From Methanobacteriota archaeon (GTDB lineage: Archaea > Thermoplasmatota > Thermoplasmata > SG8-5 > JAGLSY01), in assembly GCA_020696385.1 (NCBI GenBank), contig JAEHCQ010000006.1:96001-160000 (forward strand): 64,000 nucleotides of DNA. Direction: 5' to 3'. The notes under the pieces are model-generated. The model was not told the origin of the DNA and did no database searches. It was given only the letters and a program-made list of their open reading frames with translations. Position 1 is the stretch's first letter. Each line of letters opens with the position of its first letter. The translations under genes and the position numbers were made by a program. This document shows positions 1 through 64,000 of this stretch, one piece after another.

Positions 1-419
1 TGGAGCGAAATTATGCGGATCGTGTGATGCTGGTTGGTGATGCTGCTTGCCAGGTGAAGCCTCTGACAGGTGGTGGGCTTGTCTTTGGCCTCATGTGTGC
101 GAAACACTGTGCGGATACAGCGATCGCATCACTGGAAAGCGATCGTTTGGACGAATCTTCCCTGAAGACCTATGGTGGATCGTGTATGGAATCCATTGGG
201 AAGGAGATCAAACAGGCACTATTACTTCGCAAAATATTCATTGGATTAAATGATAATGAACTAGATGAGATAATTCATATCCTTGGTGATGAGGATCTTT
301 CAAGATTCCTTGTCTCCAGGGGGGATATGGACTTTCCCTCTATCGCGTCTAAAGCGGTGTTTCGCAAGTTTCCTAAACTGATAAAATTTGCCCCACATCT
401 TCTGAAGGCCTTTCTTTAA
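1..419 (+). CDS. Geranylgeranyl reductase-family FAD oxidoreductase, C-terminal part (5'-truncated by the window)
   Basis: Frame is open from position 3 (ERNYADRVML). VGDAACQVKPLTGGG matches the GDAAxxxxPxxGxG motif of the GGR family. Confidence 0.85.
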   Translation, partial: ERNYADRVMLVGDAACQVKPLTGGGLVFGLMCAKHCADTAIASLESDRLDESSLKTYGGSCMESIGKEIKQALLLRKIFIGLNDNELDEIIHILGDEDLSRFLVSRGDMDFPSIASKAVFRKFPKLIKFAPHLLKAFL

Positions 420-1157
420 TTTTACATGTTTAGTATCAGATTCCACGATATATAATGATAAAGCCGCAGCACCAATGAATGTGGTGATGCCAATAAGAAG
501 GTAATAAGGCCACTGTGGTATGTATTTCATCACAGTGAATGACGTATCCGGGATGATGCCATCATAACCCAATGAATTCAGGTATGAGATGTTCACTCCA
601 TTATCATCTGGCTCATTATTGATAAGTGTGTACCATTCTTCATCCGAAAAATAGCCCCTTGATGCCATGGCATAGGAATCATTACCCACTTCGAACTCCA
701 GAAGAAAGCTCACAAAATAAGAGCTCTGGGAGAAGTAGGCGCCATGTGGGGTATCGTCTACTGTGATTATGCTCATATTGATAGTCTCGGATGTATTTGC
801 CTCTAATATGTCCAATTTGATCTCGGAAATAGTAGTTCCCGTATCTGAGAATTCTGGCGCATTCTGAATTTCAGTTGTTGCCATGGCCAATTCTGCTGTT
901 TTGTAAAGATAGATGGACAATGTGAGGGTTATATTGCTCATGGTGGAGTTATCCATGATCGGATTGAATAGTTGGAATTCCAATACTCCATTTTCACCAG
1001 GTGTGATTATTGGTGTTCTGATGTCCTTGATCATCTTATTGACATTGCCTGCGTCTGTAACGGCTATTTGTCCTGTGTCTGTGACCTGGGCTTGGCATGC
1101 GCTGAGATTTATTGCAATAATAAGAATAAAGATCAATCCAGCCTTTGCAACCTTCAT
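300..1157 (-). CDS. Secreted/membrane-anchored hypothetical protein
   Basis: N-terminal hydrophobic signal (AGLIFILIIAINLSA), acidic ectodomain with N-x-S/T sequons, C-terminal TM (WPYYLLIGITTFIGAAALSLYIV) and basic tail. Confidence 0.8.
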   Translation of the reverse strand: MKVAKAGLIFILIIAINLSACQAQVTDTGQIAVTDAGNVNKMIKDIRTPIITPGENGVLEFQLFNPIMDNSTMSNITLTLSIYLYKTAELAMATTEIQNAPEFSDTGTTISEIKLDILEANTSETINMSIITVDDTPHGAYFSQSSYFVSFLLEFEVGNDSYAMASRGYFSDEEWYTLINNEPDDNGVNISYLNSLGYDGIIPDTSFTVMKYIPQWPYYLLIGITTFIGAAALSLYIVESDTKHVKLKKGLQKMWGKFYQFRKLAKHRFRRDRGKVHIPPGDKES

Positions 1158-45652: not shown

Positions 45653-45670
45653 ATAATATCTCTTTATTAA

Positions 45671-47152: not shown

Positions 47153-47171
47153 GCTAACACATTGAATTCGA

Positions 47172-48251
47172 TTATTCAAGTGCCTCGTCAAGAAGTTCCC
47201 AAAGACTCATCACCTTAACTCTCTTTTTATATTCTTTACGGGCAAGCATTGATCCTGTTAGGAGTGTGGATTCACAGGTCGGACAAACTGTAACAAGAAC
47301 ATCAACACCAGTGTCTATGGCCTGCTTCATTCTCTGCTTCGACATGTCTTCCACAAGCTCTGGATCTGTGATCAGCATACCACCACCGGCTCCACAACAC
47401 ATGCTGAACTCCTTATTGTTCTCCATTTCATGGACACGCACTCCCATGGCCTCAAGTATCTCTCGGGGTTCTTCAATGACACCGAGCTTCCGTCCAAGAT
47501 CGCATGGATCATGATATGTTGCATCCATGTCCAAGTTCTTTAGCTTGACCTTTCCTGACATTATCAGCTCATGAACTCGCTTGACCACGTGGGTGGAATT
47601 AAGGTCCATCTCTTCCTGTGTGAACATAGTACATGACGGACAGAGAGTGATGAAATCATCATGCGGATATGCTTCTTTGAATTTACTTACTATTTCGGGC
47701 ATTTCATCTTCATAGCCAAGAACATGAGCGATGTAACCACAACATGATTCATCATCTGTTATCTTGGCCTTTATTCCCATCTTATCGAGAACTTTTATGA
47801 TGAGTTTAACTTCATTCTTATTGCCCTTGTACTGACAACCAAGATAAACAGGAACCTCACCATCAGCAGTTTCCTCAAATATCTTGCTTGTTTCAATACT
47901 TCTACCAAAGACATCACCTGTTCTCTTGATGCTTTCAATAGCCAGATCATATTCAGGTCTTATCAATCCTTCTTTAACAAGTTTTCTTCTCAGTTCAATG
48001 AACCTTTCTGTGTTCGGCAGGGCGCAATGAGCATCGCAAGCACCGCAAAGCGTGCAAGTAAAGGCTACTTCGGCCAATGCCATGCTTGCATCATAATGGC
48101 CATCTATCAATCCGAGCATGGCTCTGTTCTTTCCCTTGCTCGTGTATGTCTTTATCCTCAATATCTTGTAAACTGGACAATTCCTTTCGCAGAAATTACA
48201 TGAGGTTCCGAAACATGTCTCTATATCATCCCTATGTTCTTCAATGGACAT
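47172..48251 (-). CDS. Fe-S oxidoreductase with CCG domains (GlpC/GlcF/HdrD-like)
   Basis: CNFCERNCP, CTLCGACDAHC, YLGC, CCG, CPSC, YHDPCDLGR, CCGAGGG and CPTC. Start at ATG 48251. Confidence 0.9.
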   Translation of the reverse strand: MSIEEHRDDIETCFGTSCNFCERNCPVYKILRIKTYTSKGKNRAMLGLIDGHYDASMALAEVAFTCTLCGACDAHCALPNTERFIELRRKLVKEGLIRPEYDLAIESIKRTGDVFGRSIETSKIFEETADGEVPVYLGCQYKGNKNEVKLIIKVLDKMGIKAKITDDESCCGYIAHVLGYEDEMPEIVSKFKEAYPHDDFITLCPSCTMFTQEEMDLNSTHVVKRVHELIMSGKVKLKNLDMDATYHDPCDLGRKLGVIEEPREILEAMGVRVHEMENNKEFSMCCGAGGGMLITDPELVEDMSKQRMKQAIDTGVDVLVTVCPTCESTLLTGSMLARKEYKKRVKVMSLWELLDEALE

Positions 48252-48253
48252 GT

Positions 48254-50020: not shown

Positions 50021-53000
50021 TTACCAGTTGACTGTCCAGGTTCCGCCTACTGCGACATAGACCCAGTACGCTTCGCCACGCTGGAGGACATAATTGTCCG
50101 CCAGGGTCACGATATCGTATGGTCCAGCACCGTAGCCTTCAACCATGGATGCACCAGTTGCCAGCTTCAGATCACCTACATCGTAGGTTGAATCATCCTG
50201 TGCAGGGTAACCGACAAGATTCCAACCGGAGCTCAGAGTAATATCTGTGCTTGTTGGCTCATATCCGTCTCCAACAGACAGGAGTGCTCCTGCTGTTGTG
50301 AGTTTCACCCACATACCCATTGCGTTACTAACGCTTGGCATGTCCTGTGTGATTCCTGCTGCTGCCTGTGCTTTGTCATAGGTCTTCCAGTGGTCGACTT
50401 CAATTGGGTTGTACCAAGTGATGATCTCCCATGTGGTGTCACCATTGCCCCAGTTCGCATCATCGAGAACTGTTAGAACATCGCCGGATGCAGTTATTGG
50501 GAAGGATACGAATATCCAGTCTCCTGCTCCTGCTCCACCAGTGTCTATATCATATGGCACTGCTGGTGCTCCGCCTGGTTCCTGCACTTCATTGGTGTTT
50601 GTGTCCTCATTGGATGATGTATCAACTGCTCTAACAACATACCACCAAAGTGTGGCGTCTGCCTGGCCTCTACCCATGTCCACATAGCTTGTTGTTCCAT
50701 ATGGAACAGAACCTATTAAGGACCATGGGCCGCCTGGGTTTGCGTCACCAGATCTGTAGATGTTGTAAGACATGGTGTCTGGAGATACCGAGTCAGTCCA
50801 GCTGATTGTATTGTGGTCTGCAGGGTTTCCAGCAATAGACCAGCTGAAGCCGGCTATGTTGGAGTTTGCTGCTGCTGATCCCCAATCCAAGTGACTGCCA
50901 CCCTGACCTCCACCGGATACCGTACAATCATAGCTGACGGTCCACTGGGATGCATCAAGCTGTGTAGCTCCAAGAACTTCTGTTGTGAAGGTTGCTCTGA
51001 GTGTTCCTGGTGGGTTGGTTGCTGCTGCATATAGTTCAACAACTATTGAGTCGCCTGCATCTAATATGGTTAGAGGTGGTGTCCATGTTCCAGAGTGTAA
51101 TCCGGTAGTGGTGCCACCGCCGACAGCCGATACTGCTGTTGTCAGTTGTGTCTGTACACCGGCGCTGTTCCTCTGGTACACCCTTATTCCACCGTACACT
51201 GGCTGCCAGTTTCCGAGGGAAGGTGTCTCAATTGTTGTAGATGACTGGGTAGTTCCAAGTGAGTAGGCTGTCAATGAATTGACAGTTACTTCATTGGCCA
51301 CACCTCTGAAGAACCTCTGTTCTGTTGTCATGGAACCTGCTGGCCCATCCTGTACAACTGTAAGTCCGGTCACCGGTGTTGGTGGTGTGGTGTCAACAGT
51401 TGTGAAGGTCCAGGTAACCGATTGTGTTGATCCTGTTCCATCAGTTGCTATTGCATACCAGTTGTATACGGTTGCTGAGGTCAGTCCTATTGCACCTGTT
51501 GTGGCTGTGGCACCGCTTGCAACTCCATTCACTGTTGCGAATGGGGTTCCGCTGTCCCAGTAGAACACAACATCCATCGAATCTGATTCATAATCTGAAA
51601 CATCTACGCTGAATGCCTTGCTTACTGCTACATCAAGCTCACCATCGAATGGGTCTGGGTTCATAGGTTCGTATGGACGTCTTGGTGAATCAATGAAGAT
51701 CTGAGTCTCTGCCCAGGCTCCCCAGTTGTTTGCTGCATCCATTCCTTGTACCCAAATCTTGTGCCATCCACCAGCCCAGCCAGTAGTGTCTATTGAGGTA
51801 GTACTCTCAACAGCCTCTGCTGGTGAGTTGAATGAACCATCCATTGTGTCCATGCCAACTGGTGTTGGGTTCACATCGGTCTTGTACTGAGCATCTGCGA
51901 CATTGCTACCGCCAGTTGTCCATTCGTGTACATTACCTACGACTACGACAGTGTCACCTGGAATACAGAGAACCTTGTCTGTTGAGACATATTCTGTAAT
52001 TGGTCCAACGGTGTCCGTTGCTGATTCCCAGCCATTGTAAACATGCATGGCTATGATATCATGACCGCCTTCCTTGGTGAACTGGTTCTGTGCTATCAAC
52101 ACTGTGTTGGAGTTCTCCCATGATGCAGATCGCTGCTTGCCCTTGACAAAACTGTCTAGAGTCAAGTACTGTATCTTTGTAGCTGCTCCACCTGTGTAAT
52201 CGTCGTCATAGAACATCAGCATGTTGGTCTGACCGTATGGGTCGTACCTTATGTTTCTGTGCATGAACACGTAGATGTAGTCATCTGCTGTGTAATCCAA
52301 GTCCAGAAGGAACCTTGTTCCATAATCGTGGTCACTTGCTACAGGTCCGTATGGTCCGTATCCAGCATTTCCATTGTTCTCAAAGCTGACACCATTATCA
52401 TCGGAGTACATAACAACGACACTTCGGTCGCCATCTGTGTTCGCACCCTTGAGGTAAGCTCCATACTGCCTGTTATTGGAGGCACCCTGGTTTGCTGCTA
52501 CACCCTGTGGGAACATCATGTTATCTGGTGAATCCAGAGCCATTCTTACTGCGCTCCATGATCCATCGTAGTACTGGAATGTTGCATCCCTGTCCTGTGC
52601 TGCATCTCCACTGTCTCTCTCATAATACCAGAGAGCTATGTTACCTGCAAGGTCTGTGTATGCATGCGGGAAGAAATAGAACATACTCGCGACACCTGGA
52701 TCGATCTGCGTGAATGCAGACCAGGTAGCTCCTCCATCTGAGGATGACTTTCCAGTAGTAGATATCGATACCTGTGTAGCTGTCATCAGATCAGTACCTG
52801 AATATCCAAAGTCCTCTACAACAAGGTAGAATTGTTCTCCGTTTGGATACCATACTATGTTGACAGTTCTGTAAGTATCCCTGCCGCCACCTTCAACTCC
52901 TTCACCAAGTGCGTATGCATCTGATTCAGTCCATGATGTGTATGGGAAATCTGCATAATTCACCTTGATGTAAGAACATCTTGTATCGGCTGTACTACCA

Positions 53001-55999
53001 CCATATCCATCGGGATTCCATGCATTGTACGCTATTGCTATCCTGCCTGCATTAGGTCCATTTGAAGCCCTTGCTATTCCTAAATAGCCTGGTGTCCATG
53101 AATCCTGAGATATTGGTATTGGGGTACTCCATGTAAGACCACCATCGCTGGATAATGTGAAGTATGCCTTGTCACCGAAGTTCTCATCCTGCCTGTAGGT
53201 ACATGCAACATAATCATTACCGCCTGATTCCCAGGAGGTAAATGCTGGTGCGTCCTCGTGCACTGGCGCGTCAGCTATCTTCCACTGTGTGGGTGTCTTC
53301 TCTGTGACCACATCCACTTGGAAAGCTATAGTTGACTGTGCGATAGGTGCGGATGCATCATTGTTGGATGTTGCAGTTAGTGTAACAGTGTATGTTCCAG
53401 CTGCGACTGCTCCGACATTGATCCTTGCATATCCGTGTACCCTCTCATTGACTCCTACTGAAAGACCAGATGCTGGGAAGTAAGCTGCTGTGAAACCACC
53501 TGGGACAGATGATGTGATCGTGTAAGAATCTGCTGTTGATCCACCATTGTTAATCCAGTATGGCACAATTACGCTACCACTTGGAGCACACTTGAACACT
53601 CCTTCTCCGTATCCATCTGTTTCAGGAACCACTCTTGGTGTGTCCAGGTTCATGCTTACCTTGTAAACATTGTCTCCTGCGTTCACATCAGAAGCTGTGT
53701 TCATTCCACCAGTCATAGCAATTGACCATGGGAATGCTGCGCCAGCCTTTAGGATGATATCTATGTCCCATGTTCCTACCCTTGGCTCAGCGATGGTAAA
53801 GACCTCTACGTTGTTTATATCGTCACCGCCGTCATCGGCTGTGTCGAAGTCGTAGCTTGCCCCGCCCATCCAGGTTGGATAAGCTGCATTTGACCAGTCA
53901 CCGGCAGTTGGTACAGGGGTGGACTTTCCTTCTTTGAAAGCATTTCCTTCATACCTTGTTCCATCTGGAGCGGTAACAACCAGGTCATAGTCTGTTGACA
54001 ATGCACCTGCGGAAGTTGTGTCCCAGTGTGAGAAGGTGATCTTCAATGGTACGCTCTCATCTGTAACGACCATGTCGAATCCCATTGTTGAGTCATCTGT
54101 TGTACCTGTTGTTCCACTGGAGTGGTACCACTGCAATGTGTTTGGTGCAGGTGGACAGATCGAGTTCCTCACATTGACACGTCCCCATCCCTGATCGTTG
54201 CTTGGGTATCCGTGTCCCATGTCAACGGCTCCGTGGATAAGGAGAGTCTTCAAAAGGTTACCGTGTGGTGTGATGCCAACGACATCCACCAGGTAGTCCC
54301 TTATAAGGGCTGTGTCACCAGCTGCTGCTGGGCAAGCCATTGAGGTTCCCTGAAGTGAAGCGTAGTCACCTATGCCATCACCGTCTTCATCCATGATCGT
54401 TATCAGATCATACAAACCTGGAAGTTCGGCTTCTGCTGTGTCATCAGATTTGACAGAGTAAACAGCTGTTCCGGACTCGACAATATCTGGTTTGATCCTG
54501 TCATCGCCTGGACCTGCTGGACCTCTGCTACTGAAACTGGCCATCTGGCCGTAGTTATCAGATGAATCGAAGTCGATAGCACGCATGTTCTCTGCTGCAC
54601 CCACTGAAACTGCAAGTTTACCGTTTCCGGATCCGCTTGCTGTCAATGTCCTTGGACCGTCGTTTCCGGCGGCGAACAGAACAATGGAGTTTGCATTTGA
54701 TTCCATGAAGTTGTCTGCTGTCTGGTCATATCCTGAAGACATAGTAGCTGGTCCCCAACTGTTGGTGAAGATCCTTGCACCAAATGTATAACCTGATGAC
54801 CACTCTGTGCTGACCAAGCCAGCTCTGAAGTAGATTGTTGCCTCTGGAGCCCTACCTGCAAATCCTGCCCTGTCTGGGCGGCCTGCGGGGTTGGTTGCGG
54901 CTAACTCATTGTAAAGCCTGTCTGTAGAGCTTAGACCGAGGTATTCCTCCATCATTCCACCGTCTCCAGCAACTGTACCTGTAACGTGAGTTCCATGGTA
55001 CTCTGCATCGGATGTTGAATCTGGGTTCTCAAGCCTGTCGCCTAATGGACCCTGGATGAAATCCGCATGAGTTGAGTCTATTCCAGAATCCTGGACGTGG
55101 ACGATCTGACCCTGACCTGCTATGTCCTGTGGTAGATTGGATATGTCACGGTCCCACAGATCCCATGCCTGAGATATTCTTCCTCCTACGTTGTTAAGGA
55201 GTTTCATCTCTGGCAGGTACCATACCTGATCGACAGATTCCAGTTGTGCAACATCGGCTATCAATGAAGCGTCAACTGTACACAGTACATCACCATAGTT
55301 GGTGTCTGTAACGTCCCATGCACCGAGGCTGCTCAGTTCATTCATGATCTGTGCGGCACTAATGCCTGGGAATGGGTTGATGGTCATCTGGATAGTTCCG
55401 ACCTTTCCATTGAGTTTTGCATCTACTTTGAATGCTGGCTCGTATGGTCCGACCCACTGAACATAGTCCAGATTCTCTACATTGGCCTTCTCGGCAGAGT
55501 TCATCTTGGCGACGACTGCATTGTCGTTGATGTATCTCCTGATACCGCCTGTGTTGGACTCTATTCCATCAAACCAGACCTGATTGCCTGGTGTGACGAA
55601 CTGTACGATGTAGTTCTGTGTTCCAGTGTTCTGGAATCTTGCTGGAACATTGTATCCAGTCTCTGTGTTGAAACTGATATCCTGTTCCAGGAATTTCATC
55701 TGTGTCCTTTCCTGAAGGTCCACGACGCTCATTCTGTTTGAGAGTGCTCCTCTCTGGGAATTTGTTACTTTAACATAGGCTCCCCATTCGTTCAAGCTCA
55801 CTATTTCGGTTCCACTGTCCTGTAATTCTCTGGCTTGTTCTGGTGTATCAAAAGTCACCAGGACAAAATCTGTGGATTCTACTGCATCGACCGAATTATC
55901 GCCAAGATTTGACGCTAATATCGACCAAGACATAGAGACCATAGAGATTACAACAATCATAGAAACCACTGTTGATAATTTCTTGTTTTCATTGCCCAA
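50021..55999 (-). CDS. Large secreted S8 subtilase with Asp-box repeats, Ig/FN3-like domains and a C-terminal GWNLVGYP repeat domain
   Basis: Signal peptide and prodomain, VQDSGID, HGTHVTG, AAGNDG, SSRGP, KPD and GTSMACP all intact. SxDGGxTW repeats. TTG start after GGAGG. Confidence 0.93.
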   Translation of the reverse strand: MGNENKKLSTVVSMIVVISMVSMSWSILASNLGDNSVDAVESTDFVLVTFDTPEQARELQDSGTEIVSLNEWGAYVKVTNSQRGALSNRMSVVDLQERTQMKFLEQDISFNTETGYNVPARFQNTGTQNYIVQFVTPGNQVWFDGIESNTGGIRRYINDNAVVAKMNSAEKANVENLDYVQWVGPYEPAFKVDAKLNGKVGTIQMTINPFPGISAAQIMNELSSLGAWDVTDTNYGDVLCTVDASLIADVAQLESVDQVWYLPEMKLLNNVGGRISQAWDLWDRDISNLPQDIAGQGQIVHVQDSGIDSTHADFIQGPLGDRLENPDSTSDAEYHGTHVTGTVAGDGGMMEEYLGLSSTDRLYNELAATNPAGRPDRAGFAGRAPEATIYFRAGLVSTEWSSGYTFGARIFTNSWGPATMSSGYDQTADNFMESNANSIVLFAAGNDGPRTLTASGSGNGKLAVSVGAAENMRAIDFDSSDNYGQMASFSSRGPAGPGDDRIKPDIVESGTAVYSVKSDDTAEAELPGLYDLITIMDEDGDGIGDYASLQGTSMACPAAAGDTALIRDYLVDVVGITPHGNLLKTLLIHGAVDMGHGYPSNDQGWGRVNVRNSICPPAPNTLQWYHSSGTTGTTDDSTMGFDMVVTDESVPLKITFSHWDTTSAGALSTDYDLVVTAPDGTRYEGNAFKEGKSTPVPTAGDWSNAAYPTWMGGASYDFDTADDGGDDINNVEVFTIAEPRVGTWDIDIILKAGAAFPWSIAMTGGMNTASDVNAGDNVYKVSMNLDTPRVVPETDGYGEGVFKCAPSGSVIVPYWINNGGSTADSYTITSSVPGGFTAAYFPASGLSVGVNERVHGYARINVGAVAAGTYTVTLTATSNNDASAPIAQSTIAFQVDVVTEKTPTQWKIADAPVHEDAPAFTSWESGGNDYVACTYRQDENFGDKAYFTLSSDGGLTWSTPIPISQDSWTPGYLGIARASNGPNAGRIAIAYNAWNPDGYGGSTADTRCSYIKVNYADFPYTSWTESDAYALGEGVEGGGRDTYRTVNIVWYPNGEQFYLVVEDFGYSGTDLMTATQVSISTTGKSSSDGGATWSAFTQIDPGVASMFYFFPHAYTDLAGNIALWYYERDSGDAAQDRDATFQYYDGSWSAVRMALDSPDNMMFPQGVAANQGASNNRQYGAYLKGANTDGDRSVVVMYSDDNGVSFENNGNAGYGPYGPVASDHDYGTRFLLDLDYTADDYIYVFMHRNIRYDPYGQTNMLMFYDDDYTGGAATKIQYLTLDSFVKGKQRSASWENSNTVLIAQNQFTKEGGHDIIAMHVYNGWESATDTVGPITEYVSTDKVLCIPGDTVVVVGNVHEWTTGGSNVADAQYKTDVNPTPVGMDTMDGSFNSPAEAVESTTSIDTTGWAGGWHKIWVQGMDAANNWGAWAETQIFIDSPRRPYEPMNPDPFDGELDVAVSKAFSVDVSDYESDSMDVVFYWDSGTPFATVNGVASGATATTGAIGLTSATVYNWYAIATDGTGSTQSVTWTFTTVDTTPPTPVTGLTVVQDGPAGSMTTEQRFFRGVANEVTVNSLTAYSLGTTQSSTTIETPSLGNWQPVYGGIRVYQRNSAGVQTQLTTAVSAVGGGTTTGLHSGTWTPPLTILDAGDSIVVELYAAATNPPGTLRATFTTEVLGATQLDASQWTVSYDCTVSGGGQGGSHLDWGSAAANSNIAGFSWSIAGNPADHNTISWTDSVSPDTMSYNIYRSGDANPGGPWSLIGSVPYGTTSYVDMGRGQADATLWWYVVRAVDTSSNEDTNTNEVQEPGGAPAVPYDIDTGGAGAGDWIFVSFPITASGDVLTVLDDANWGNGDTTWEIITWYNPIEVDHWKTYDKAQAAAGITQDMPSVSNAMGMWVKLTTAGALLSVGDGYEPTSTDITLSSGWNLVGYPAQDDSTYDVGDLKLATGASMVEGYGAGPYDIVTLADNYVLQRGEAYWVYVAVGGTWTVNW

Positions 56000-56333
56000 T
56001 TTACATTCCTCCTTCCTTATATCTTATTTTAGAAGCAAAGATTTCTCCTCTTTTCCTCACTTGTTTCAGTTTGTTTAAAATCTAAGCTGTTGCTATATCC
56101 TATGATGTTTGTATTATATAAAATATTCGCAATATACTGTATGTTTAATTAGTATAAATATTATTATTAATAGGTAATAGTTGTGACAAGCTATATATTT
56201 TATTCAAAACTTCTTGATAAAGTTTTAGATTATCTGTTTGTTATCGGGGATATGCAAATTTATATAAAGGTCTAAACAATAAACATCCGTAAGACCTCTC
56301 ATATCGAGAGGAATCGAGGACGGAGGATTGTAA

Positions 56334-59300
56334 ATGCCAGTTGATAAGACAGTTAAGACAATAAGTTTACTGTTAGTTATGGCTCTTGTGCTAGGTCCAT
56401 TGGGCGGCGTAAGTGTCAAAGAAAGCTATAATGGAGTTTTAAACCCATCTACCCCAGATTCAGGTGATATTACAGATGCACCCGACATCTTAAATAAGGA
56501 TATTGCAGGCAAGAATCTGCCCAATACCCAAGCATCTTCGAAGCGTACGAACTTTGGAGATCTTACTGAGATGAATGGTGTGTATTCCACCAGTGGGATC
56601 AAGCCATCCCAGGCAGCCTGGGGTAATTGGAGTTACAGAGATGCCCATAATGTTCCAATGGTTGCGAACATGGGCTATGAGGGTGCAGGTGTATCTGTGG
56701 CTCTCGTTGATACCGGAATTGATTTCGGTAATATCAATCTGGCAGACAAGTACATGACCGTGGATGACCCCACGTCACCGTATTATGGCTGGCCAATGGC
56801 ATTTGATCCTTTGGCATTGTCATCTTACTTACAAGCTAAAGAGGTCCGAGTAGGGAATGGATGGTACGCAAATACATCCATAAATGGAACTGGTCCATTT
56901 GATGTTAACCATGAAATAAAGGTTGATGGAAAGAATGATTTCTCCCAAACAGAATTGGTTGGTAAGGACAGATATTCAGATGTCAGAGTTAATGGAACTT
57001 CTACGAAAGCAGAGTTCGATCTGAATGAATTATTCATTACAAGAGATGATACATATTGGTATGGTGGTGTCAATACTCGATATGCTGAAATGAACAGAAC
57101 TTTTGGATTTGCCCTTGACTTTGATGGGGCTGCGAGTGGTGGATTGACCGATCCTCGTGGTAATTACCTCCATTTCAAAGCATCACATTCTGCACCTGTC
57201 GAACAAGTAGCATACAGTCCAGATAATAACCTCATTGCCTCCTGTGCTGCATCTGGTACTACTGATGCGCCAACATCATCTTACAGCGTAAATTCTGTAA
57301 AGATCTGGGGTGTAGATGGTAGCCTCATTGAGACTCTACCAAGTGAGGTGAGCAATGTCTTCACAATAGCATGGTCTTCGGATGGTAGCTATTTGGCATA
57401 TCAGACATTGAAAGAGGTTATTGTCTATGAAACATCTGGCTGGACAGAAGTGTGGAGAGTGGAAACCATATCCGAATCAGACGGATATAGAGAATCCATG
57501 ACCTTCAGTCCTGATAACTCGATATTATACTTCGGAATGAAGCTACCAAGATTAGGTTTCTTGTTCATGAACAATGGGACTCACATGGCTAAAAGCATAG
57601 GTGGAAAGGCTTTTTCATTGGCTTTCAATCCGATATCTGGAGATAAGATCGCCGTCGGTCTTGGGGATGGATACGCAAAGATTCTTGATAGCACCTTCCC
57701 ATACTCTGAGATATTACAATTCAAAGACCCTATCTTAAGCAGTAATATTGAAACTGTCGCATGGAGCCCAGATGAGACCAAGATCATCACTGGCATAGGC
57801 AGCTTAGGTACAAGTATCATGCAGATATGGGATGCAAGTACTGGGGCTTGGATAGCCAATATTACCGGTGGGCATGACCCCGACTCAACTGTAAATACAA
57901 TAAAATGGCTAAGCACAGGTGAGATCATCACAGGAGCAGATGATGGTAATATGATTGTATGGGATGATACTACTTATAGCATTATTGACACAAAGGTTAG
58001 TATAAATAATGAACCAATATACTCTTTTGATATCAATGACGTCACTGGTGAATATTTCCTAGGTACAGCGGACTGTCTTGTTACAAAATTCAGCAGTGAT
58101 TGGGGTACAACAACGCCATTTGCAGCCCAGAGACCTGATGTCATGATATATATTGATTATGAGAGAGAATACTATACCTTCGGAGCCGATGGGCAGAAGT
58201 TGACGACCCGCGATCAGATATTCAATCCTGATGTTTATAAATGGGATGAATCTTCCTCCTCATGGGAATCCACCAACCTTTCTGCAATTGGAGGAGAATA
58301 CATTTACAAAGGATCTTTGGCAGGAGAGTTCACAGAGGTTGGCTTTGTCGAATGGAGCATACCAAGGAACTACAGTGATTGGCCAGGATCAAATGACCTG
58401 TATGTCAGTTCATTTATCTGTGATTGGGAACCATCCCGACCACAGGATACTATCCCAATGGATTGTAATGTCCCGTCACCTCCAACTTCTGTTTGGGTGG
58501 ATTTCACAAATACTGAGCCCGTAGGTATCAGTGCATGGGGACATTCATACATTCCTAAGACAACTGTCGATCACGCTAAAGTTACTAGTGTGAGCCCAGA
58601 TGATACTTATCACTTTGGATACCACCCAAGTAAGTCACTTACAAAAATGCTGGGTCCTGTATCTATCCTGGTTGTAGAATCAACAACATTAGGAGAATGG
58701 GATCAGGTATACATTGATATGAATACAGATTATATAATTGATGACAACGACATTGTTGTCGATATCAATAATCCTCTGGCAGTATGGGATGCCTGGAATG
58801 GCAGCCAGCCTGGTTCAGATGGATACCCTGACATATCTGGTGGTCTTCTTTACTTTATTGCAAATGGAACCAATAAATTACCGTATTCTGACAGAATGGG
58901 AGAGCTATTAGAGCTCACATGGAATGAAGACAGCCCAATGCCGATACCAGGTAATGGAGAACTTGTCGCTTTCTATGGTGAATTCGATTATGATGATCTA
59001 AATGGAGAAATAGTAACACATGGAACACAGATGGCGTCAGTTATCGCATCTGAAGGAGTAATCAATGGACAGAATGGACCTATCGAGGGTGTAAGCCCAG
59101 ATATCAAATTCCTTCCAATGTGTAATGCCCAGTATGATCTTGAGAATTCCCTGTACTTTGCAGTAGAGGGATATGATGGTATACCAAACACTGGTGATGA
59201 AGCAAACATAGTATCAACGGGCCAGTATTCATCTGGCTATGACAATGGTTTGGATTCAACTTCAAGTGTTATTGAATCACTTGTAAACTATACCAACTCA

Positions 59301-62300
59301 AATGTTACTTTCATTGCCCCATCTGGAAATGATGGAAGTGGCTATGGAACTATAGCCTCACCTTGCGGACCAAGCACTCTTGTTGTTGGTTTTGCTGAGG
59401 ACAATACATTTGTTTCTGGCGGAGGAGATGTTCATCATTATGGATCAGTTGGAGAAGCATCATCACGAGGGCCAACTGCTACTGGTCTGATTAAACCGGA
59501 CATCATAGCTCTTGGCAGTGGTGAAACCGATATGCCTATTGGTTTCAGTGGATCATTTATTGGTACAGATGGATCAAAGGAGTTCTGGACGTGGACATCA
59601 TCAAGTGAGTTTGCAACCGCAACTGCAACTGGCGTGATGGCTCTTATATACCAAGCTTACGAAGATACCTATGGAAATTACCCAACTATTGAGACCGCCA
59701 TGAGCCTGATTAAATCATCCGGTAGGGATCTTGGACACGATCCGTACACACAGGGAAGTGGATTCATTGATGCTTATACCGCAATACTGGCTGCAACAGG
59801 AGCTACAGGTTTGACAATGGATGTTCCGGATTCAACATTTGGAGATTCATATGGGTCAAGCTACACAGGATTCATAGATGTTATGGATCGCGGAGATTCC
59901 GCTGAATTGTCTATAGACATCGAGAACCTTGGAAGTGGCACAGAGGATGTTGTATACTCTATGGAATATCTTAGAAGAATAGATGTCTCTGAGTTTAATA
60001 TCACAATGGCAACAGGAACTTCTGAATTTGAAGGTGAATTGTCTAGTTACATACCATTGGAAGCCCAGGTCATTAAAGTTGTTGCTCAAACACCATATGT
60101 CGGGTTCAGCATAGGATATGGAGATTATTCAATAACACTATGGGATTGGGAAGATGCCCAGGGCCCAGGTGAGACAAATTATGGTATTATAGATGATTCT
60201 GATGACATAAGCTATCTCATATCCACTCATCAAGAATCGGTTAACTCACTTGTTTGTACCTATGCATTACCCTATGGAGGACTTGCAGGTAAGCTTATTA
60301 TGGATATTATCCCATCAAATGATGTCGGAGCTCTTTTAGATAGGAACTGGACAATAACTGTAGAATCCTTTGCACTTGGAGAATGGGACTGGTTGGAGAT
60401 GTCTAAATCAACCGATGCAATACCTACTGGTGGCACAAGCACATTGGATCTTACCATGACTATTCCGGACAATGCATTGCCTGGAACATATGGAGCATCT
60501 ATAGTTGCATCATATGATGAAATAGCAGGTAGTTTCAATGATGTGTATGGCCCGACCTTAGAAGGAGATACAAGCTACTTGGATGTTGATCTTGATACAA
60601 CACATTGGGATGATGGAGCTATTGGTAACTACTGGGATGATTATGGCGGAGCGGGAACATATGCTCTACCTGATGGAGACAATGCAGATAGGTTCCCACA
60701 GATGACACCATTTAGATCCACATACACAGCCCATAATCCGATTGCGATAAATGGCAATGGAGGTTTCTCTTCTGTTGCAAACAGTGGAGCTGGAACTGCC
60801 ATGAACCCATGGGTCATAGAAGGCTATGAGATCGATGGAACAGCTTTCTCACAGGCAGGTATCAGTATCGAGAACACGGATGCCTATTTCATCGTCAGAA
60901 ACTGTTACATCCACGATGCACAGGGCAGTGCAGGAGTATACCTTGATAATGTTGAGAATGGTGCATTCATAAGCAATAATGTATCAGCCAATGCCCAGCA
61001 AGGTTTCTATGTCACTAATTCCGACAATTTGTATATAGCAGATAATGATATCATGGATAATTTAGCAGATGGAATAGACCTGAGTGTATCTGAATATGTC
61101 ACTATTGCTTACAATGATATATTCAATAATGCAGGTAATGGCTTTGCATCAATTGCTATAAATATGAATGATGATAATTATTGTAATATTATAGGTAACT
61201 ATATGGTAGGTAGACCACTGGATGCTGGCTTTGGATGTACCCTTGGCTTGTATACATCACACTACAATGTGATCTCGGGCAATAACATGACTGACGAAGA
61301 CCAGCTAATTGATGCATGGAGTGCTACCAACAATGAGGTCACTTACAACACCTTTGTAAGGGCAAATGAATTCACAGCTGTGGCATTCTGGACAGCCGCA
61401 TCAAACAACAATGATATACACCACAATGCATTCTACGACATTGACATATCTGGCTGGCCTAATGCAGAAGCTTATGATGATGATGCATCAAACAACTGGG
61501 ATGATGGAGCTGAAGGAAACTTCTGGGACATCTACACAGGCCCAGATGCAGATGTTAACGGAATTGTGGATGCACCATTTGCAATTGGTGGAGGTGTTAA
61601 CCAGGATAATTTCCCATTGGTCACACCAAACACAGATATGCAAGGTTATCTACCTGCACATGCACCGATAGTCATCGATGGTGATGCAGACTTTACAGCA
61701 CCAAACGGCGTGGTTAGCGGAACTGGAACCTCAGCAGACCCATACATTATCGAAGGGTGGTCAATAGTCGGGCCTGGAAACGCGATTCAAATAATGAACA
61801 CAACTGAGTACTACGTTATCAAGAACTGTCAGCTGATTGGCAATGGAACTGACTTCGGTATCTTCATCACAAACTCAACAAATGGAGTAGTGAGGTTCAA
61901 TGATATATCTGGATTCAATGCTGGAATCGGCATAGGATCCACAGACATATCTGTGTCCCACAATATGTTATACTCTAACATAGTAGGTGTAACATTGGGA
62001 ATGTCCACAGATGTCACATTGGAACACAATGTTGTAGATGCTGGTATGTTTGGATTCTATGTGTCTATGTCTGAGGACTGCTATATTATGAACAATGATA
62101 TCAGTGGTAGCGCAGTTTATGGGATACAGCTGAACAGTTCAAGCGGTATCAACTATGTGTACTACAACAATCTGATGTCAAACACAGGCCAGGCTTTCGA
62201 TGATACACTTGGAGACACAGTAGATGACTTCGAGCTATTCGCAGCCCATGGTGTTCCAGCAGACCTCATTGATGTATATGATGTGGCCTGGTGCAATATC

Positions 62301-64000
62301 TCAGTTGATGGTGTTCCTCTTGTGGTGGATATTGATTACACATTGGATATCGACACTGGTTATATCATGTTCACACCAACTTTGAACGGTCTCCCAGGTG
62401 GCTCGAATGTTCTCATTGATGCCAATCTAATATACACTGAATCAATACCAACTGGCTTCAGTCTGGATGACAAGAGATTGGTCGATGCAAGTGCTGTTGT
62501 GGATATATACCACAAGAGATTGAATGGAACAATGGAACAGATCGCAGATAGCCAGATAAATGTGAACTACGCTGTAGGGACTGTTGCATTGAACTATTCT
62601 GCAAATCTTGAACTTGGTCTGTATATATTCGCAAACTACACATATTACAACAGAACTGTAATGCAGTCATTCTCTGTGAATGTGCAACCTCAGATAACAG
62701 ATACAGGATCATTCACATATGGAGATTCAAATTCCACTGAAGAACCTGGCGTCATGCCAACATGGGGTATGAGACCAGGACAGGGCTCAACACTACAGAG
62801 TGGTGATAGAAGATACTTCCACCTGTATGTACCTGCACAGGGATTGTATGCAACATCACAATTGGACGACTATTATCTGTTCAATGAGTTGTCATGGGGT
62901 ATGAATGCCACTGATCTCAACTTTGTGATATATGGAAAGGGTGACGCCGGTATCATGCCAAGTGCAGCACCTTACTACGCATCTTCACTCGGTGCTAGTG
63001 AAGAAAAGGCTGACTTCAGCTTCTTTACTGCAACAGAGGGTCCGAAAGAAGTTCTTGTTACACCATTCGCAAATGAGATAATAACGATCGTGGTATCTGC
63101 AAAGAGCTTTAATGGAACTGGAGACTCGGTCGAGATGCTTGAAGGAAGCAGTGGATGGCTGAAACTTAGTAGCAAGAATCCAAAGACATGGACAGATAAT
63201 CAGGTAGGTCACATGAATGTTTCAATGTTCTCCAACCTTAACCTGGACTCTGGTATCTATGCATCTATTGTGGGCCCTGCTCAGGGGCAGAGAACAACAG
63301 AGGATGTGTATGTGGATGACCTTTCCAATGATGATGGAACAATGGAGGGTTGGCTTACACTTTTGACATCTGGTGCATACACAAAGGTTGTCACAGTGGA
63401 AAATGCTCTTAGCTGGGATGTTCATATATGGGGTGACCCAACATGTCCTGATCTTGATCTGGCTGTGTTCCTGGATGGACTTAATGGCCAGCCAAAAGAT
63501 GGTGAAGCTCAATGGCAGGAAATAATTACGAAGAATGATATTGAGTTCGATGCTTATGCTAGTTTATATGGGACTGGATCCTATGCATATTGTGCAGACA
63601 TGGATGCGGATGAGGCTCTGAAATTCATAAGCCCGCCAGATGGTGATTATATCATCAAGGTTCTTGGATACACCGTCATGGGAAATCCAAGTCACTTCGA
63701 TCTTGAATTGAAGACCATCTTCTCTGGTGTAGAAGGATATAAGATCATGCCTAATGAAGCAGAATTTGCTGATGAGGACACAACAAGTAATGGATACCTC
63801 AATGAAACATCAATACCATCATTCACAGAAAGATCATTCAGTGTTCTTTGGAACTTCCCAGAGGGAACTGTGGATAATGTATATGGTGGAATCTACGTGC
63901 TTGGAATTCCAGAAGCGAACAAGCTCATTGTGATATCCACTGATATCTCACTTGACAGGGAAGCTCCTACCATAATACCACAATATACTGGACCAGGTAC
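56334..64000 (+). CDS. Giant secreted subtilase-like multidomain protein (>2500 aa, runs off the window); WD40 insertion, NosD-like beta-helices, degenerate catalytic Ser motif
   Basis: ATG after GGAGG. Manual translation: MPVDKTVKTISLLLVMALVLG, VALVDTGIDFG, THGTQMASVIA, PSGNDGSG, SSRGP..KPD and SSSEFATA. In frame at every spot check through 64000. Absent from the ORF track, consistent with no stop inside the window. Confidence 0.88.
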   Translation, partial: MPVDKTVKTISLLLVMALVLGPLGGVSVKESYNGVLNPSTPDSGDITDAPDILNKDIAGKNLPNTQASSKRTNFGDLTEMNGVYSTSGIKPSQAAWGNWSYRDAHNVPMVANMGYEGAGVSVALVDTGIDFGNINLADKYMTVDDPTSPYYGWPMAFDPLALSSYLQAKEVRVGNGWYANTSINGTGPFDVNHEIKVDGKNDFSQTELVGKDRYSDVRVNGTSTKAEFDLNELFITRDDTYWYGGVNTRYAEMNRTFGFALDFDGAASGGLTDPRGNYLHFKASHSAPVEQVAYSPDNNLIASCAASGTTDAPTSSYSVNSVKIWGVDGSLIETLPSEVSNVFTIAWSSDGSYLAYQTLKEVIVYETSGWTEVWRVETISESDGYRESMTFSPDNSILYFGMKLPRLGFLFMNNGTHMAKSIGGKAFSLAFNPISGDKIAVGLGDGYAKILDSTFPYSEILQFKDPILSSNIETVAWSPDETKIITGIGSLGTSIMQIWDASTGAWIANITGGHDPDSTVNTIKWLSTGEIITGADDGNMIVWDDTTYSIIDTKVSINNEPIYSFDINDVTGEYFLGTADCLVTKFSSDWGTTTPFAAQRPDVMIYIDYEREYYTFGADGQKLTTRDQIFNPDVYKWDESSSSWESTNLSAIGGEYIYKGSLAGEFTEVGFVEWSIPRNYSDWPGSNDLYVSSFICDWEPSRPQDTIPMDCNVPSPPTSVWVDFTNTEPVGISAWGHSYIPKTTVDHAKVTSVSPDDTYHFGYHPSKSLTKMLGPVSILVVESTTLGEWDQVYIDMNTDYIIDDNDIVVDINNPLAVWDAWNGSQPGSDGYPDISGGLLYFIANGTNKLPYSDRMGELLELTWNEDSPMPIPGNGELVAFYGEFDYDDLNGEIVTHGTQMASVIASEGVINGQNGPIEGVSPDIKFLPMCNAQYDLENSLYFAVEGYDGIPNTGDEANIVSTGQYSSGYDNGLDSTSSVIESLVNYTNSNVTFIAPSGNDGSGYGTIASPCGPSTLVVGFAEDNTFVSGGGDVHHYGSVGEASSRGPTATGLIKPDIIALGSGETDMPIGFSGSFIGTDGSKEFWTWTSSSEFATATATGVMALIYQAYEDTYGNYPTIETAMSLIKSSGRDLGHDPYTQGSGFIDAYTAILAATGATGLTMDVPDSTFGDSYGSSYTGFIDVMDRGDSAELSIDIENLGSGTEDVVYSMEYLRRIDVSEFNITMATGTSEFEGELSSYIPLEAQVIKVVAQTPYVGFSIGYGDYSITLWDWEDAQGPGETNYGIIDDSDDISYLISTHQESVNSLVCTYALPYGGLAGKLIMDIIPSNDVGALLDRNWTITVESFALGEWDWLEMSKSTDAIPTGGTSTLDLTMTIPDNALPGTYGASIVASYDEIAGSFNDVYGPTLEGDTSYLDVDLDTTHWDDGAIGNYWDDYGGAGTYALPDGDNADRFPQMTPFRSTYTAHNPIAINGNGGFSSVANSGAGTAMNPWVIEGYEIDGTAFSQAGISIENTDAYFIVRNCYIHDAQGSAGVYLDNVENGAFISNNVSANAQQGFYVTNSDNLYIADNDIMDNLADGIDLSVSEYVTIAYNDIFNNAGNGFASIAINMNDDNYCNIIGNYMVGRPLDAGFGCTLGLYTSHYNVISGNNMTDEDQLIDAWSATNNEVTYNTFVRANEFTAVAFWTAASNNNDIHHNAFYDIDISGWPNAEAYDDDASNNWDDGAEGNFWDIYTGPDADVNGIVDAPFAIGGGVNQDNFPLVTPNTDMQGYLPAHAPIVIDGDADFTAPNGVVSGTGTSADPYIIEGWSIVGPGNAIQIMNTTEYYVIKNCQLIGNGTDFGIFITNSTNGVVRFNDISGFNAGIGIGSTDISVSHNMLYSNIVGVTLGMSTDVTLEHNVVDAGMFGFYVSMSEDCYIMNNDISGSAVYGIQLNSSSGINYVYYNNLMSNTGQAFDDTLGDTVDDFELFAAHGVPADLIDVYDVAWCNISVDGVPLVVDIDYTLDIDTGYIMFTPTLNGLPGGSNVLIDANLIYTESIPTGFSLDDKRLVDASAVVDIYHKRLNGTMEQIADSQINVNYAVGTVALNYSANLELGLYIFANYTYYNRTVMQSFSVNVQPQITDTGSFTYGDSNSTEEPGVMPTWGMRPGQGSTLQSGDRRYFHLYVPAQGLYATSQLDDYYLFNELSWGMNATDLNFVIYGKGDAGIMPSAAPYYASSLGASEEKADFSFFTATEGPKEVLVTPFANEIITIVVSAKSFNGTGDSVEMLEGSSGWLKLSSKNPKTWTDNQVGHMNVSMFSNLNLDSGIYASIVGPAQGQRTTEDVYVDDLSNDDGTMEGWLTLLTSGAYTKVVTVENALSWDVHIWGDPTCPDLDLAVFLDGLNGQPKDGEAQWQEIITKNDIEFDAYASLYGTGSYAYCADMDADEALKFISPPDGDYIIKVLGYTVMGNPSHFDLELKTIFSGVEGYKIMPNEAEFADEDTTSNGYLNETSIPSFTERSFSVLWNFPEGTVDNVYGGIYVLGIPEANKLIVISTDISLDREAPTIIPQYTGPG

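What the first reader, a model, noticed from the sequence alone, without database searches (positions are those of the whole stretch)
56334..64000. Hidden >2500-aa subtilase-like protein with Glu in place of the catalytic Ser
Not in the ORF track. Asp (DTG, codon at 56709), His (HGT, 59019) and oxyanion Asn (SGND) motifs are present. Where GGTSMATP is expected the sequence reads SSSEFATATATGVMALIYQAY, placing Glu (59607) at the nucleophile position. The N-terminal pro-region is short. Downstream are NosD-like beta-helix modules (HNPIAING..NPWVIEG, HAPIVIDG..DPYIIEG, GN(Y/F)WD). Inference: a catalytically dead protease scaffold reused as a receptor, adhesin or structural surface protein.
Basis: partly seen in the sequence, partly recalled or inferred. 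Interest (0 to 1): 0.8.

Follow-up and report, generated by a model that had tools for sequence, protein, structure and literature searches.

The report
Giant archaeal surface protein, serine-less subtilase
This is a 3096-residue membrane-anchored surface protein of a Thermoplasmatota archaeon whose subtilisin-like domain carries glutamate where the catalytic serine should be, so it is most likely a binding module that no longer cuts protein and works beside a normal protease encoded next to it.

Summary
The frame from 56334 is open, runs past the window and ends at 3096 residues. D126, H896 and N999 are at the reported codons. E1092 takes the catalytic Ser column in alignments to solved subtilases and across 195 relatives.

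- A seven-bladed WD40 propeller and further beta domains (about 675 residues) lie between the catalytic Asp and His.
- The Ser-to-acid change is old. A well-supported clade of 45 proteins has D or E there in 39, His in 39 and Asp in 41 of 42.
- The substrate cleft is remodelled as well. Seven of the nine changed canonical-conserved columns lie at the catalytic or cleft motifs.
- The gene sits head to head with a canonical S8 protease of about 2000 residues. I read this pairing in 9 of 11 genomes.

His is lost in 6 of 12 species-representative loci while the acid is kept in 11 of 12. Sister lineages have lost the whole triad. I therefore read the domain as a pseudo-subtilase, most likely a binding or scaffold module (confidence 0.62). 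Altered chemistry remains possible (0.13). This is a new variant of a known kind.

The parts
50021..55999 (-). Divergently transcribed neighbour. It is a canonical S8 protease of 1992 aa with a full triad (D304, H336, N446, S553 in GTSMACP), a long N-terminal region before the S8 domain, BNR/Asp-box motifs, and by eye no hydrophobic stretch at its C-terminal end.
   Evidence: Pfam Peptidase_S8 scores 109.8 bits over profile positions 1-288. Motifs were read. Orthologous neighbours are 52% identical over the full length in G010 and 58% in G015.
56000..56333 (.). AT-rich 334-bp divergent intergenic region with TATA-like runs. GGAGG at 56322-56326 lies 8 nt before the ATG.
   Evidence: Sequence read. 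The promoter assignment is inference.
56334..64000 (+). First 2555 codons of the 3096-codon gene. The gene ends at contig C47:161624, which is L002:9624.
56349..56420 (+). N-terminal hydrophobic segment (residues 6-29), read as a signal peptide or anchor.
   Evidence: Kyte-Doolittle scan. It is one of only two segments above threshold.
56628..56933 (+). N-terminal piece of the split subtilase fold (about residues 99-200), holding catalytic Asp D126 (codon 56709-56711).
   Evidence: The VIA alignment to Vpr 8jmw_A spans model residues 15..1084. D follows strand 37-41 of the model. D is conserved in 41 of 42 clade members. Domain boundaries are approximate.
57174..58106 (+). Seven-bladed WD40 beta-propeller (residues 281-591), inserted between catalytic Asp and His.
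   Evidence: Pfam WD40 scores 43.6 bits against a cut-off of 27. VIA gives Z 36.5, rmsd 1.9, 285 aligned to 2ymu_B. Foldseek TM up to 0.89 to seven-bladed propellers.
58107..58958 (+). Further beta-rich insert domains (residues 592-875) with no Pfam family. Part of this region resembles residues 1555-1690 of the neighbour protease.
   Evidence: Secondary structure. No Pfam family over its cut-off. BLASTP shows 30-39% identity between the neighbour and residues ~140-805 of the giant orthologs in other genomes; this gene itself gave no hit.
58959..59843 (+). C-terminal piece of the subtilase fold (residues 876-1170), with H896 (59019-59021), N999 (59328-59330) and E1092 at the nucleophile position (59607-59609, GAG).
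60729..61613 (+). Right-handed parallel beta-helix module 1 (about residues 1466-1760).
   Evidence: Pfam Beta_helix 88.3 bits, best stretch 1497-1604. TIGR04247 scores 50.5 bits, far under its cut-off of 300.
61656..62213 (+). Right-handed parallel beta-helix module 2 (about residues 1775-1960).
   Evidence: Pfam NosD 85.7 bits, best stretch 1802-1956.
62658..63158 (+). Beta-sandwich resembling pre-peptidase C-terminal and collagen-binding domains (residues 2109-2275).
   Evidence: AF2 model 2 has pLDDT 76.9. VIA gives Z 9.4 to 5sv5_A and Z 8.8 to 1nqd_A. These are middling scores.
63276..63725 (+). Beta-jelly-roll like the C-terminal domain of Tk-SP and KP-43 subtilases (residues 2315-2464).
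   Evidence: VIA gives Z 10.6, rmsd 2.1, 98 aligned, 19% identity to 9ues_B residues 418-518. 3afg_B gives Z 10.5 and 1wmd_A gives Z 8.6.

Best explanation
The gene encodes a 335-kDa, very acidic, single-pass surface protein of a Thermoplasmatota archaeon. Its order of parts is: signal sequence, a subtilase (S8) fold split by a WD40 propeller and further beta domains, beta-sandwich linkers, two parallel beta-helices, PPC-like and Tk-SP-like jelly rolls, Ig-like repeats, one membrane helix, and an acidic cytoplasmic tail. The subtilase module is a pseudo-protease. It keeps the fold, the catalytic Asp, the His and the oxyanion Asn, but Glu sits at the nucleophile position and the substrate-binding strand is remodelled. 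It therefore cannot carry out serine-protease acyl-enzyme chemistry. I infer that it serves as a non-cleaving binding or scaffold module, with the acidic residue kept either to cap the active-site helix and pair with His or to bind a cationic ligand. I also infer that it works together with the secreted canonical S8 protease encoded head to head with it. The model for this is the way the CspC and CspA pseudoproteases partner the active CspB in Clostridioides difficile. Shown here: the sequence features, the predicted fold, the conservation pattern and the gene pairing. Inferred: loss of activity, binding, and any partnership with the neighbour.
For: (1) E1092 occupies the Ser column. The helix starts at S1091 in the model. 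(2) The split fold is intact: Vpr 8jmw_A gives Z 32.4, rmsd 2.7, 293 aligned, spanning model residues 15..1084. (3) I took 41 columns conserved in at least 88% of the 121 canonical relatives. The clade of 45 keeps the canonical residue in at least 80% of members at 32 of them. Seven of the nine changed columns lie in or beside the catalytic and cleft motifs (963, 965, 999, 1090, 1091, 1092, 1096). (4) A starred clade of 62 proteins has a single Ser at the nucleophile column, in a member that has lost His, and none with both His and Ser. Seventeen of them have lost the whole triad yet remain giant proteins of similar build (15 of the 17 are 1569-3725 aa), so the architecture persists without catalysis. 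(5) His is dispensable: it is lost in 6 of 45 clade members and in 6 of 12 species-representative loci, while the acid stays in 39 of 45 and 11 of 12. (6) No I9-type prodomain was found at the short N-terminus. (7) A divergent pairing of a giant weak-S8 gene with a canonical full-profile S8 gene was read in 9 of 11 genomes. G008 and G046 could not be judged or showed none. (8) The genome has at least six other S8 genes with an intact H-N-S site or the parts of it covered by the alignment, so proteolysis does not depend on this one. (9) Precedent: pseudo-subtilases that regulate an active, co-encoded subtilase (PMC7200643, passages read).
Against: Asp, His and an acidic residue are kept together in most clade members (36 of 45 have both His and D/E). 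D and E exchanged at least 5 times without loss of charge. This is more order than simple decay predicts and could mean a working site. No activity, ligand or interaction was tested. I could not see model coordinates, so side-chain geometry at E1092 and H896, and the position of the propeller relative to the cleft, are unknown. The nucleophile column is not unusually conserved at residue level: 10 parsimony changes against a column median of 12. Neighbouring genes need not interact.
Confidence: 0.62

Rival explanations
1. Altered chemistry. The Asp-His-Glu/Asp site, with Asn or Asp at the oxyanion position, is a working active site or metal site. The carboxylate would act as nucleophile or general base, or as a metal ligand together with His and residue 999. 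The substrate would be something other than a standard peptide in the canonical cleft. An analogy, recalled, is the Asp nucleophile of haloalkane dehalogenases and epoxide hydrolases within the serine-hydrolase alpha/beta fold.
For: 39 of 45 clade members keep D or E, 39 of 45 keep His, and 41 of 42 keep Asp. There were at least 5 D/E exchanges against 4 acid-to-other changes. Half the clade also has Asp at the oxyanion position (N 22, D 21), which gives a carboxylate-rich pocket. Fully degenerate sister lineages lose Asp, His and the acid together (13 of 15 lack Asp), which suggests the three are kept as a set where they are kept. Cleft remodelling (G127-equivalent to N/Y) could reflect a new substrate.
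Against: His is replaced by S, T, Q or R in 6 of 12 species-representative loci while Glu stays. True catalytic residues are invariant in the canonical relatives (121 of 121), whereas here they reach only 87%. The acid column changes about as often as an average column. An acidic residue at a helix N-terminus is also favoured for purely structural reasons (recalled). No metal or substrate evidence exists.
Confidence: 0.13
2. It is still a serine protease. One of the serines just before E1092 (S1090 or S1091) acts as nucleophile through a one-residue register shift.
For: Three serines precede E1092 (SSSEF). Ser is the commonest residue at position -1 in the clade (30 of 45).
Against: Position -1 is the Thr220-equivalent (T in 119 of 121 canonical relatives). 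In the clade it is S 30, T 9 and G, D, A, V or C in 6, so it is not kept as Ser. No gap separates the column from the conserved Gly eight residues later in any of the 195 aligned proteins. The model starts the helix at S1091, which puts E1092 at the canonical spot. Ser125-, Gly127- and Pro225-equivalents are also lost.
Confidence: 0.05
3. The subtilase module has no function of its own. It is a decaying remnant carried along in a surface protein whose work is done by the propeller, beta-helices and Ig-like domains. The acid survives only as a helix cap.
For: Sister lineages tolerate complete loss of the triad. His loss is frequent. The acid column is of average variability.
Against: 32 of 41 canonical-conserved columns, mostly Gly, Pro and Asp, remain conserved in the clade, and 15 columns in this region are invariant across all 45 members. 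The module is 46-61% identical among the 16 nearest relatives found. The model is confident (pLDDT 84.5). So the fold itself is under selection.
Confidence: 0.15

Closest known systems
CspC and CspA pseudoproteases of Clostridioides difficile (S8 family)
   Same: They have a subtilase fold with catalytic residues substituted and no protease activity. They act with an active subtilase (CspB) that is co-encoded, and fused in the case of CspBA. Pseudoactive-site residues are conserved within a lineage (PMC7200643, passages read).
   Different: They are bacterial spore proteins of ordinary size with prodomains. CspC's pseudoactive-site residues are Thr170 and Gly485 (restored to His and Ser in the paper), not an acidic residue at the nucleophile position. 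They have no propeller insert, beta-helices or membrane anchor. Sequence relationship is only at family level.
Tk-SP, KP-43 and Vpr type S8A proteases
   Same: They are the best sequence and fold matches: 9ues and 3afg at E 7e-10 to 9e-10, and Vpr 8jmw_A at Z 32.4. The Tk-SP-type C-terminal jelly roll is also present (Z 10.6).
   Different: Those are active Asp-His-Ser enzymes of 400-800 residues with prodomains. Here Ser is Glu, the cleft is remodelled, about 675 residues are inserted between Asp and His, and the jelly roll lies about 1150 residues downstream, behind two beta-helices.
Canonical WD40-bearing S8 proteins of Thermoplasmatota MAGs (for example P0029-P0043, named 'S8 family serine peptidase' by NCBI)
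   Same: They share the giant architecture, with precomputed WD40-type Pfam families and an Asp-to-His spacing of roughly 750-1300 residues where I measured it. They are the nearest canonical clade on the tree.
   Different: They keep H-N-S and the GTSLASP motif. The clade holding this gene has no member with both His and Ser.
Tripeptidyl peptidase II and prolyl oligopeptidase (recalled, not tested)
   Same: TPP II is an S8 enzyme with a large insert between the catalytic Asp and His. Prolyl oligopeptidase uses a seven-bladed propeller to gate access to a hydrolase site. Both are possible analogies for the propeller here.
   Different: Both are active cytosolic serine peptidases. The insert in TPP II is not a WD40 propeller. 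The position of the propeller relative to the cleft could not be examined here.
Sedolisins (S53; recalled)
   Same: They have a subtilase-like fold with acidic residues introduced at the active site, including Asp in place of the oxyanion Asn, as in half of this clade.
   Different: Sedolisins keep the Ser nucleophile and replace His by Glu. Here His is mostly kept and the Ser is replaced.

Membership tests
Peptidase S8 (subtilase) homologous family | Subtilase alpha/beta fold and a profile match | tested here: met
   Pfam PF00082 scores 58.4 bits against a cut-off of 21.8, over profile positions 46-260. VIA gives Z 32.4 to Vpr 8jmw_A, spanning both halves of the fold.
Peptidase S8 (subtilase) as an active serine peptidase | Catalytic Asp in the D[TS]G motif | tested here: met
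   D126 sits in VALVDTGID. D is present in 41 of 42 clade members.
Peptidase S8 (subtilase) as an active serine peptidase | Catalytic His in the HGT motif | tested here: met
   H896 sits in THGTQ. His is lost in 6 of 12 species-representative relatives.
Peptidase S8 (subtilase) as an active serine peptidase | Oxyanion-hole Asn | tested here: met
   N999 sits in SGNDG. The clade has N in 22 and D in 21.
Peptidase S8 (subtilase) as an active serine peptidase | Nucleophile Ser in the G-T-S-x-A-x-P motif | tested here: not met
   E1092 sits in S-S-E-F-A-T-A. The column is Ser in 121 of 121 canonical relatives and D or E in 39 of 45 clade members. Pro is replaced by Ala in 42 of 45.
Peptidase S8 (subtilase) as an active serine peptidase | N-terminal I9-type prodomain | tested here: inconclusive
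   Pfam found no family in residues 1-280 at E up to 0.05. Only about 70 residues lie between the signal sequence and the fold. Some S8 enzymes lack I9.
Pseudo-subtilase of the Csp kind | Substituted triad together with a co-encoded active subtilase | tested here: met
   Glu is at the nucleophile position. A canonical S8 gene lies head to head at 50021-55999, and I read the pairing in 9 of 11 genomes.
Pseudo-subtilase of the Csp kind | Shown lack of protease activity and a regulatory interaction with the active partner | not testable with these tools
   This needs biochemistry. No prediction of the complex was attempted, because the split S8 module of 1091 residues exceeds the size limit.
WD40 beta-propeller | Seven-bladed propeller fold and repeat profile | tested here: met
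   PF00400 scores 43.6 bits against a cut-off of 27. VIA gives Z 36.5, rmsd 1.9, 285 aligned. Foldseek TM is 0.87-0.89 to seven-bladed propellers.
NosD (nitrous oxide reductase maturation protein) | Equivalog-level match to TIGR04247 | tested here: not met
   The score is 50.5 bits against a cut-off of 300. Only the generic parallel beta-helix repeats match: PF13229 at 88.3 bits and PF05048 at 85.7 bits.

The most novel reading that the evidence does not exclude
The clade-wide Asp-His-(Asp/Glu) arrangement, often with Asp at the oxyanion position, is a working site. That would make it a subtilase fold converted from serine to carboxylate or metal-dependent chemistry, gated by the inserted WD40 propeller and acting on a non-peptide or unusual polymer at the archaeal cell surface. 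This would be a new catalytic type within clan SB.
Probability: 0.12. Interest if true: 0.85.

Novelty: new variant of a known kind. Interest (0 to 1): 0.55.

Why it matters
Pseudo-proteases are recognised regulators, but few are described in the subtilase family, and I found none in archaea in the library searched. This case adds three things:
- A deep archaeal clade in which the nucleophile was replaced by a conserved acidic residue rather than lost at random.
- A subtilase fold split by a WD40 propeller.
- A recurrent head-to-head pairing of a giant serine-less subtilase gene with an intact protease gene.

These Thermoplasmatota are known only from metagenome-assembled genomes, and their cell surfaces are poorly understood. 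Such proteins are among their largest genes and are likely major surface components. The paired layout gives a concrete, testable model for how an anchored pseudo-enzyme and a secreted enzyme might cooperate. Annotation pipelines name the close relatives only 'parallel beta-helix repeat protein', so the feature is currently invisible in databases.

Tried and rejected
- The search for related loci in genome contigs with the 321-aa segment found no confirmed relative. I used the genome search instead.
- The look-up of sequencing runs: none was listed and no RNA holder was listed. Read laying was therefore not used, and expression is untested.
- The search of earlier findings was not open.
- Foldseek against the PDB returned only WD40 hits for the 1091-residue model. 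The subtilase match came from pdb_via_wide.
- Pfam found nothing in residues 1-280, 1961-2560 or the cytoplasmic tail, even at E up to 5 for the last two. A SHOCT-like look of the conserved C-terminal motif (recalled) got no support.
- My first regex scan for catalytic motifs in the paralogs was too crude. I replaced it with profile alignment.
- BLAST-based extraction of the N-terminal Asp block was confused by an extra insert in some homologs. I redid it with an N-terminal alignment and a small HMM.
- A 55-sequence alignment was too large for structure prediction, so I used 28 sequences.
- No model coordinates are available, so I could not measure distances at the site or judge whether the propeller covers the cleft.
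- Complex prediction was not used. The split S8 module exceeds the 1000-residue limit, and I had no specific domain pair to justify a job.
- GC content (giant gene 0.427, neighbour 0.486, genome 0.455 with SD 0.022 over 6-kb windows) lies within the genome's range and gives no sign of recent transfer.
- Literature searches found no description of this archaeal family. These were listings only, except for passages of PMC7200643.
Full report
**Observation.** The frame opening at ATG 56334 has no stop to the window end (2555 codons). A GGAGG lies 8 nt upstream, in a 334-bp AT-rich intergenic region. The window is contig C47:96001-160000 of a 2.28-Mb genome in 50 contigs, 94% complete. An MCM helicase gene in the window and the source names of homologs ('Thermoplasmatota archaeon', 'Thermoplasmata archaeon') place the organism in the archaeal phylum Thermoplasmatota.

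**Is Glu really at the nucleophile position?** Four lines of evidence say yes.
- phmmer against solved structures aligns residues 873-1172 to Tk-SP (9ues and 3afg, E 7e-10 and 9e-10). SSSEFATATATG lies over PGT(A)MATPHVAG without a gap, and E1092 falls on the position between the conserved GT and M, where canonical subtilases carry the nucleophile Ser (recalled); both deposited sequences read Ala there.
- In an alignment of 195 relatives, the column holds Ser in every one of the 121 proteins with His, Asn and Ser.
- An AF2 model of residues 85-1175 (28-row alignment, mean pLDDT 84.5, pTM 0.79) starts the helix at S1091, so E1092 is in the first turn. H896 opens a helix, and D126 and N999 follow strands, as I recall for subtilisin.
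- The three preceding serines do not rescue the site. Position -1 is the Thr220-equivalent (T in 119 of 121 canonical relatives; BPN' numbering recalled). In this gene's clade it is S 30, T 9 and other residues in 6.

**Anatomy.**
- Pfam finds Peptidase_S8 only from residue 886, because the fold is split.
- In the model, a seven-bladed WD40 propeller occupies residues 281-591 (VIA Z 36.5, rmsd 1.9, 285 aligned; Foldseek TM up to 0.89). Further beta domains follow up to about residue 875.
- The two flanking pieces together align to Bacillus Vpr (8jmw_A: Z 32.4, rmsd 2.7, 293 aligned, model 15..1084).
- Downstream lie two parallel beta-helix modules (PF13229 at 88.3 bits, PF05048 at 85.7 bits). 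They are not NosD itself: TIGR04247 scores 50.5 bits against a cut-off of 300.
- A second model of residues 1960-2560 (pLDDT 76.9) shows a PPC or collagen-binding-like sandwich (Z 9.4) and a jelly roll like the C-terminal domain of Tk-SP (9ues_B: Z 10.6, rmsd 2.1, 98 aligned).
- Beyond the window come Big_13, Big_6 and three Glucodextran_B-type Ig-like domains.
- Only two hydrophobic segments exist, at residues 6-29 and 2909-2940. A 158-residue tail with 44% Asp plus Glu follows the second one.
- The whole protein is 335 kDa, with pI 4.05 and 33 N-glycosylation sequons.
- This is the layout of a type-I anchored surface protein.

**Relatives and history.**
- A word-seeded search gave 58 proteins and an exhaustive representative search gave 936 hits at E up to 1e-3, of which the best 150 were listed. 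Nearly all are proteins of 1000-3700 residues.
- I built a FastTree of 187 rows with the three catalytic columns removed. The gene falls in a starred clade of 62 proteins that has a single Ser at the nucleophile column, in a member without His, and none with both His and Ser.
- A starred subclade of 45 has, at the nucleophile column, D 30, E 9, H 2 and Y, A, M, V once each. At the His column, 39 are H. At the oxyanion column, N is 22 and D is 21. At the Asp column, 41 of 42 are D.
- The other 17 are fully degenerate: 13 of 15 lack the Asp, none has His, and the nucleophile column is mostly A or G.
- Asp-to-His spacings of 750-1300 residues occur throughout. The nearest canonical clade also carries WD40 families, so the insert predates the loss of Ser.
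- On the 45-clade, the nucleophile column needs 10 changes. Five of these are D/E swaps and four are acid to non-acid. The median column needs 12 changes.

**The site was remodelled, not merely mutated.** I took the 41 columns conserved in at least 88% of the 121 canonical proteins. In 32 of them the clade of 45 keeps the canonical residue in at least 80% of members. The nine changed columns are:
- 921 and 1037, away from the catalytic motifs;
- 963 (Ser125-equivalent, now G or A);
- 965 (Gly127-equivalent, now N or Y; Y in this gene);
- 999 (Asn155);
- 1090, 1091 and 1092 (Gly219, Thr220 and Ser221);
- 1096 (Pro225, now Ala in 42 of 45).

Seven of the nine lie in or beside the catalytic and cleft motifs. 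The mapping to subtilisin numbering is recalled, not computed.

**Evidence that cuts against a working triad.** I examined twelve species-representative loci from the same order and class. Eleven have D or E at the nucleophile column, but only six keep His. The replacements are S, S, T, Q, R and R. In this set and the 45-clade, every member that lost His but kept the acid carries Glu (5 of 5 and 3 of 3; the sets overlap and the cases are not independent). Catalytic residues in the canonical relatives are invariant, whereas here they reach 87%. An acidic residue at the N-terminus of a helix is also structurally favoured (recalled). The conserved charge therefore has a non-catalytic explanation.

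**Genomic context.**
- The genome holds nine S8 genes: this one, a 3405-residue fully degenerate paralog (E, A, G, A at the four positions), a 422-residue canonical enzyme, a tandem set of four on C11 (two with H-N-S, one with Asn and Ser but the His stretch not covered, one degenerate), and two canonical giants.
- One canonical giant is the head-to-head neighbour at 50021-55999. It has 1992 residues with D304, H336, N446 and S553 in GTSMACP, BNR/Asp-box motifs, and by eye no hydrophobic stretch at its C-terminal end.
- The same divergent arrangement holds for the orthologs in G010 (neighbour 52% identical over its full length), G015 (58%) and G007.
- It also holds for more distant giants in G006 (two pairs), G017, G020 (two pairs) and G032, and for a giant weak-S8 gene in G012.
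- For the degenerate paralog in this genome, one 738-residue ORF lies in between.
- In G008 and at G012:C61 the contig ends prevent a call. In G046 no partner was listed.
- I read this pairing in 9 of 11 genomes examined.
- No close ortholog (over 50% identity) was found in the three genomes of the same genus, which are 74-93% complete. The nearest orthologs, at 56-59% identity, are in other families of the order.

**Interpretation.** The module cannot perform serine acyl-enzyme chemistry. Fold-level conservation, a remodelled cleft, dispensable His, fully degenerate sister lineages of the same build and a constantly adjacent intact protease together fit a pseudo-protease that binds rather than cuts. 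The C. difficile Csp system is the closest precedent: pseudo-subtilases CspC and CspA act with active CspB, and their pseudoactive-site residues are lineage-conserved (PMC7200643, passages read). The surface-protein role and the partnership are inferred. The conserved carboxylate leaves room for a bolder reading, a carboxylate- or metal-based site, to which I give about one chance in eight.

**Limits.**
- No coordinates, activity, expression or interaction data were available.
- The tree is FastTree only.
- The protein sets are cluster representatives and are partly redundant with the genome loci.
- Pairings were read from coordinates of profile hits. Full ORF maps were checked for six loci.
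- Six literature searches of the held library listed no paper on this archaeal family. Papers outside that library were not searched.

Noticed in passing
G000:C47:71673-81890 (-), outside the window; locus L028:1676-11890: A second giant paralog of 3405 aa has a fully degenerate subtilase site: Glu for the Asp, Ala for His, Gly for Asn and Ala for Ser. It lies divergent to another canonical S8 gene (1602 aa), with one 738-aa ORF in between.
   Followed up: partly
G000:C11:275194-291972: Four tandem same-strand S8 genes of about 1300-1400 aa each. Two show H-N-S, one shows Asn and Ser with the His stretch not covered, and one has a degenerate site (SGSGGSAAI at the nucleophile motif).
   Followed up: partly
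window 50021-55999 (-), residues 1555-1690 of the neighbour; giant orthologs in other genomes (L024, L025, L026, L027), residues ~140-805: The neighbour protease shares a module of about 135-230 residues (30-39% identity) with the giant orthologs in other genomes; this genome's own giant gave no hit in that BLASTP run. This hints at domain exchange or a common interaction module between the paired genes.
   Followed up: no
loci L013, L014, L016, L017, L020, and P0009, P0010, P0012: Every relative that lost His but kept the acidic residue carries Glu, never Asp. The Asp-bearing loci (4 of 4) all keep His. This may be phylogenetic inertia or may mean that Asp needs His as a partner.
   Followed up: partly
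window 56334-64000 versus 50021-55999; also C47:71673-81890 versus C47:84632-89440: In both divergent pairs the giant serine-less gene has lower GC (0.427 and 0.435) than its canonical partner (0.486 and 0.491). The genome mean is 0.455.
   Followed up: no
L002:9094-9621 (residues 2921-3096, beyond the window): The cytoplasmic tail is 44% Asp plus Glu and ends in a motif conserved across homologs (consensus EDPR...L..A...GKIS.E.YE.NL). It has no Pfam match.
   Followed up: partly
window 41548-49711 (-): Upstream genes on the minus strand are MCM helicase, a GlmS-like amidotransferase, a GlmU-like nucleotidyl/acetyltransferase, a CCG/4Fe-4S protein and an FAD-linked oxidase. The sugar-nucleotide genes could relate to surface glycosylation.
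   Followed up: no
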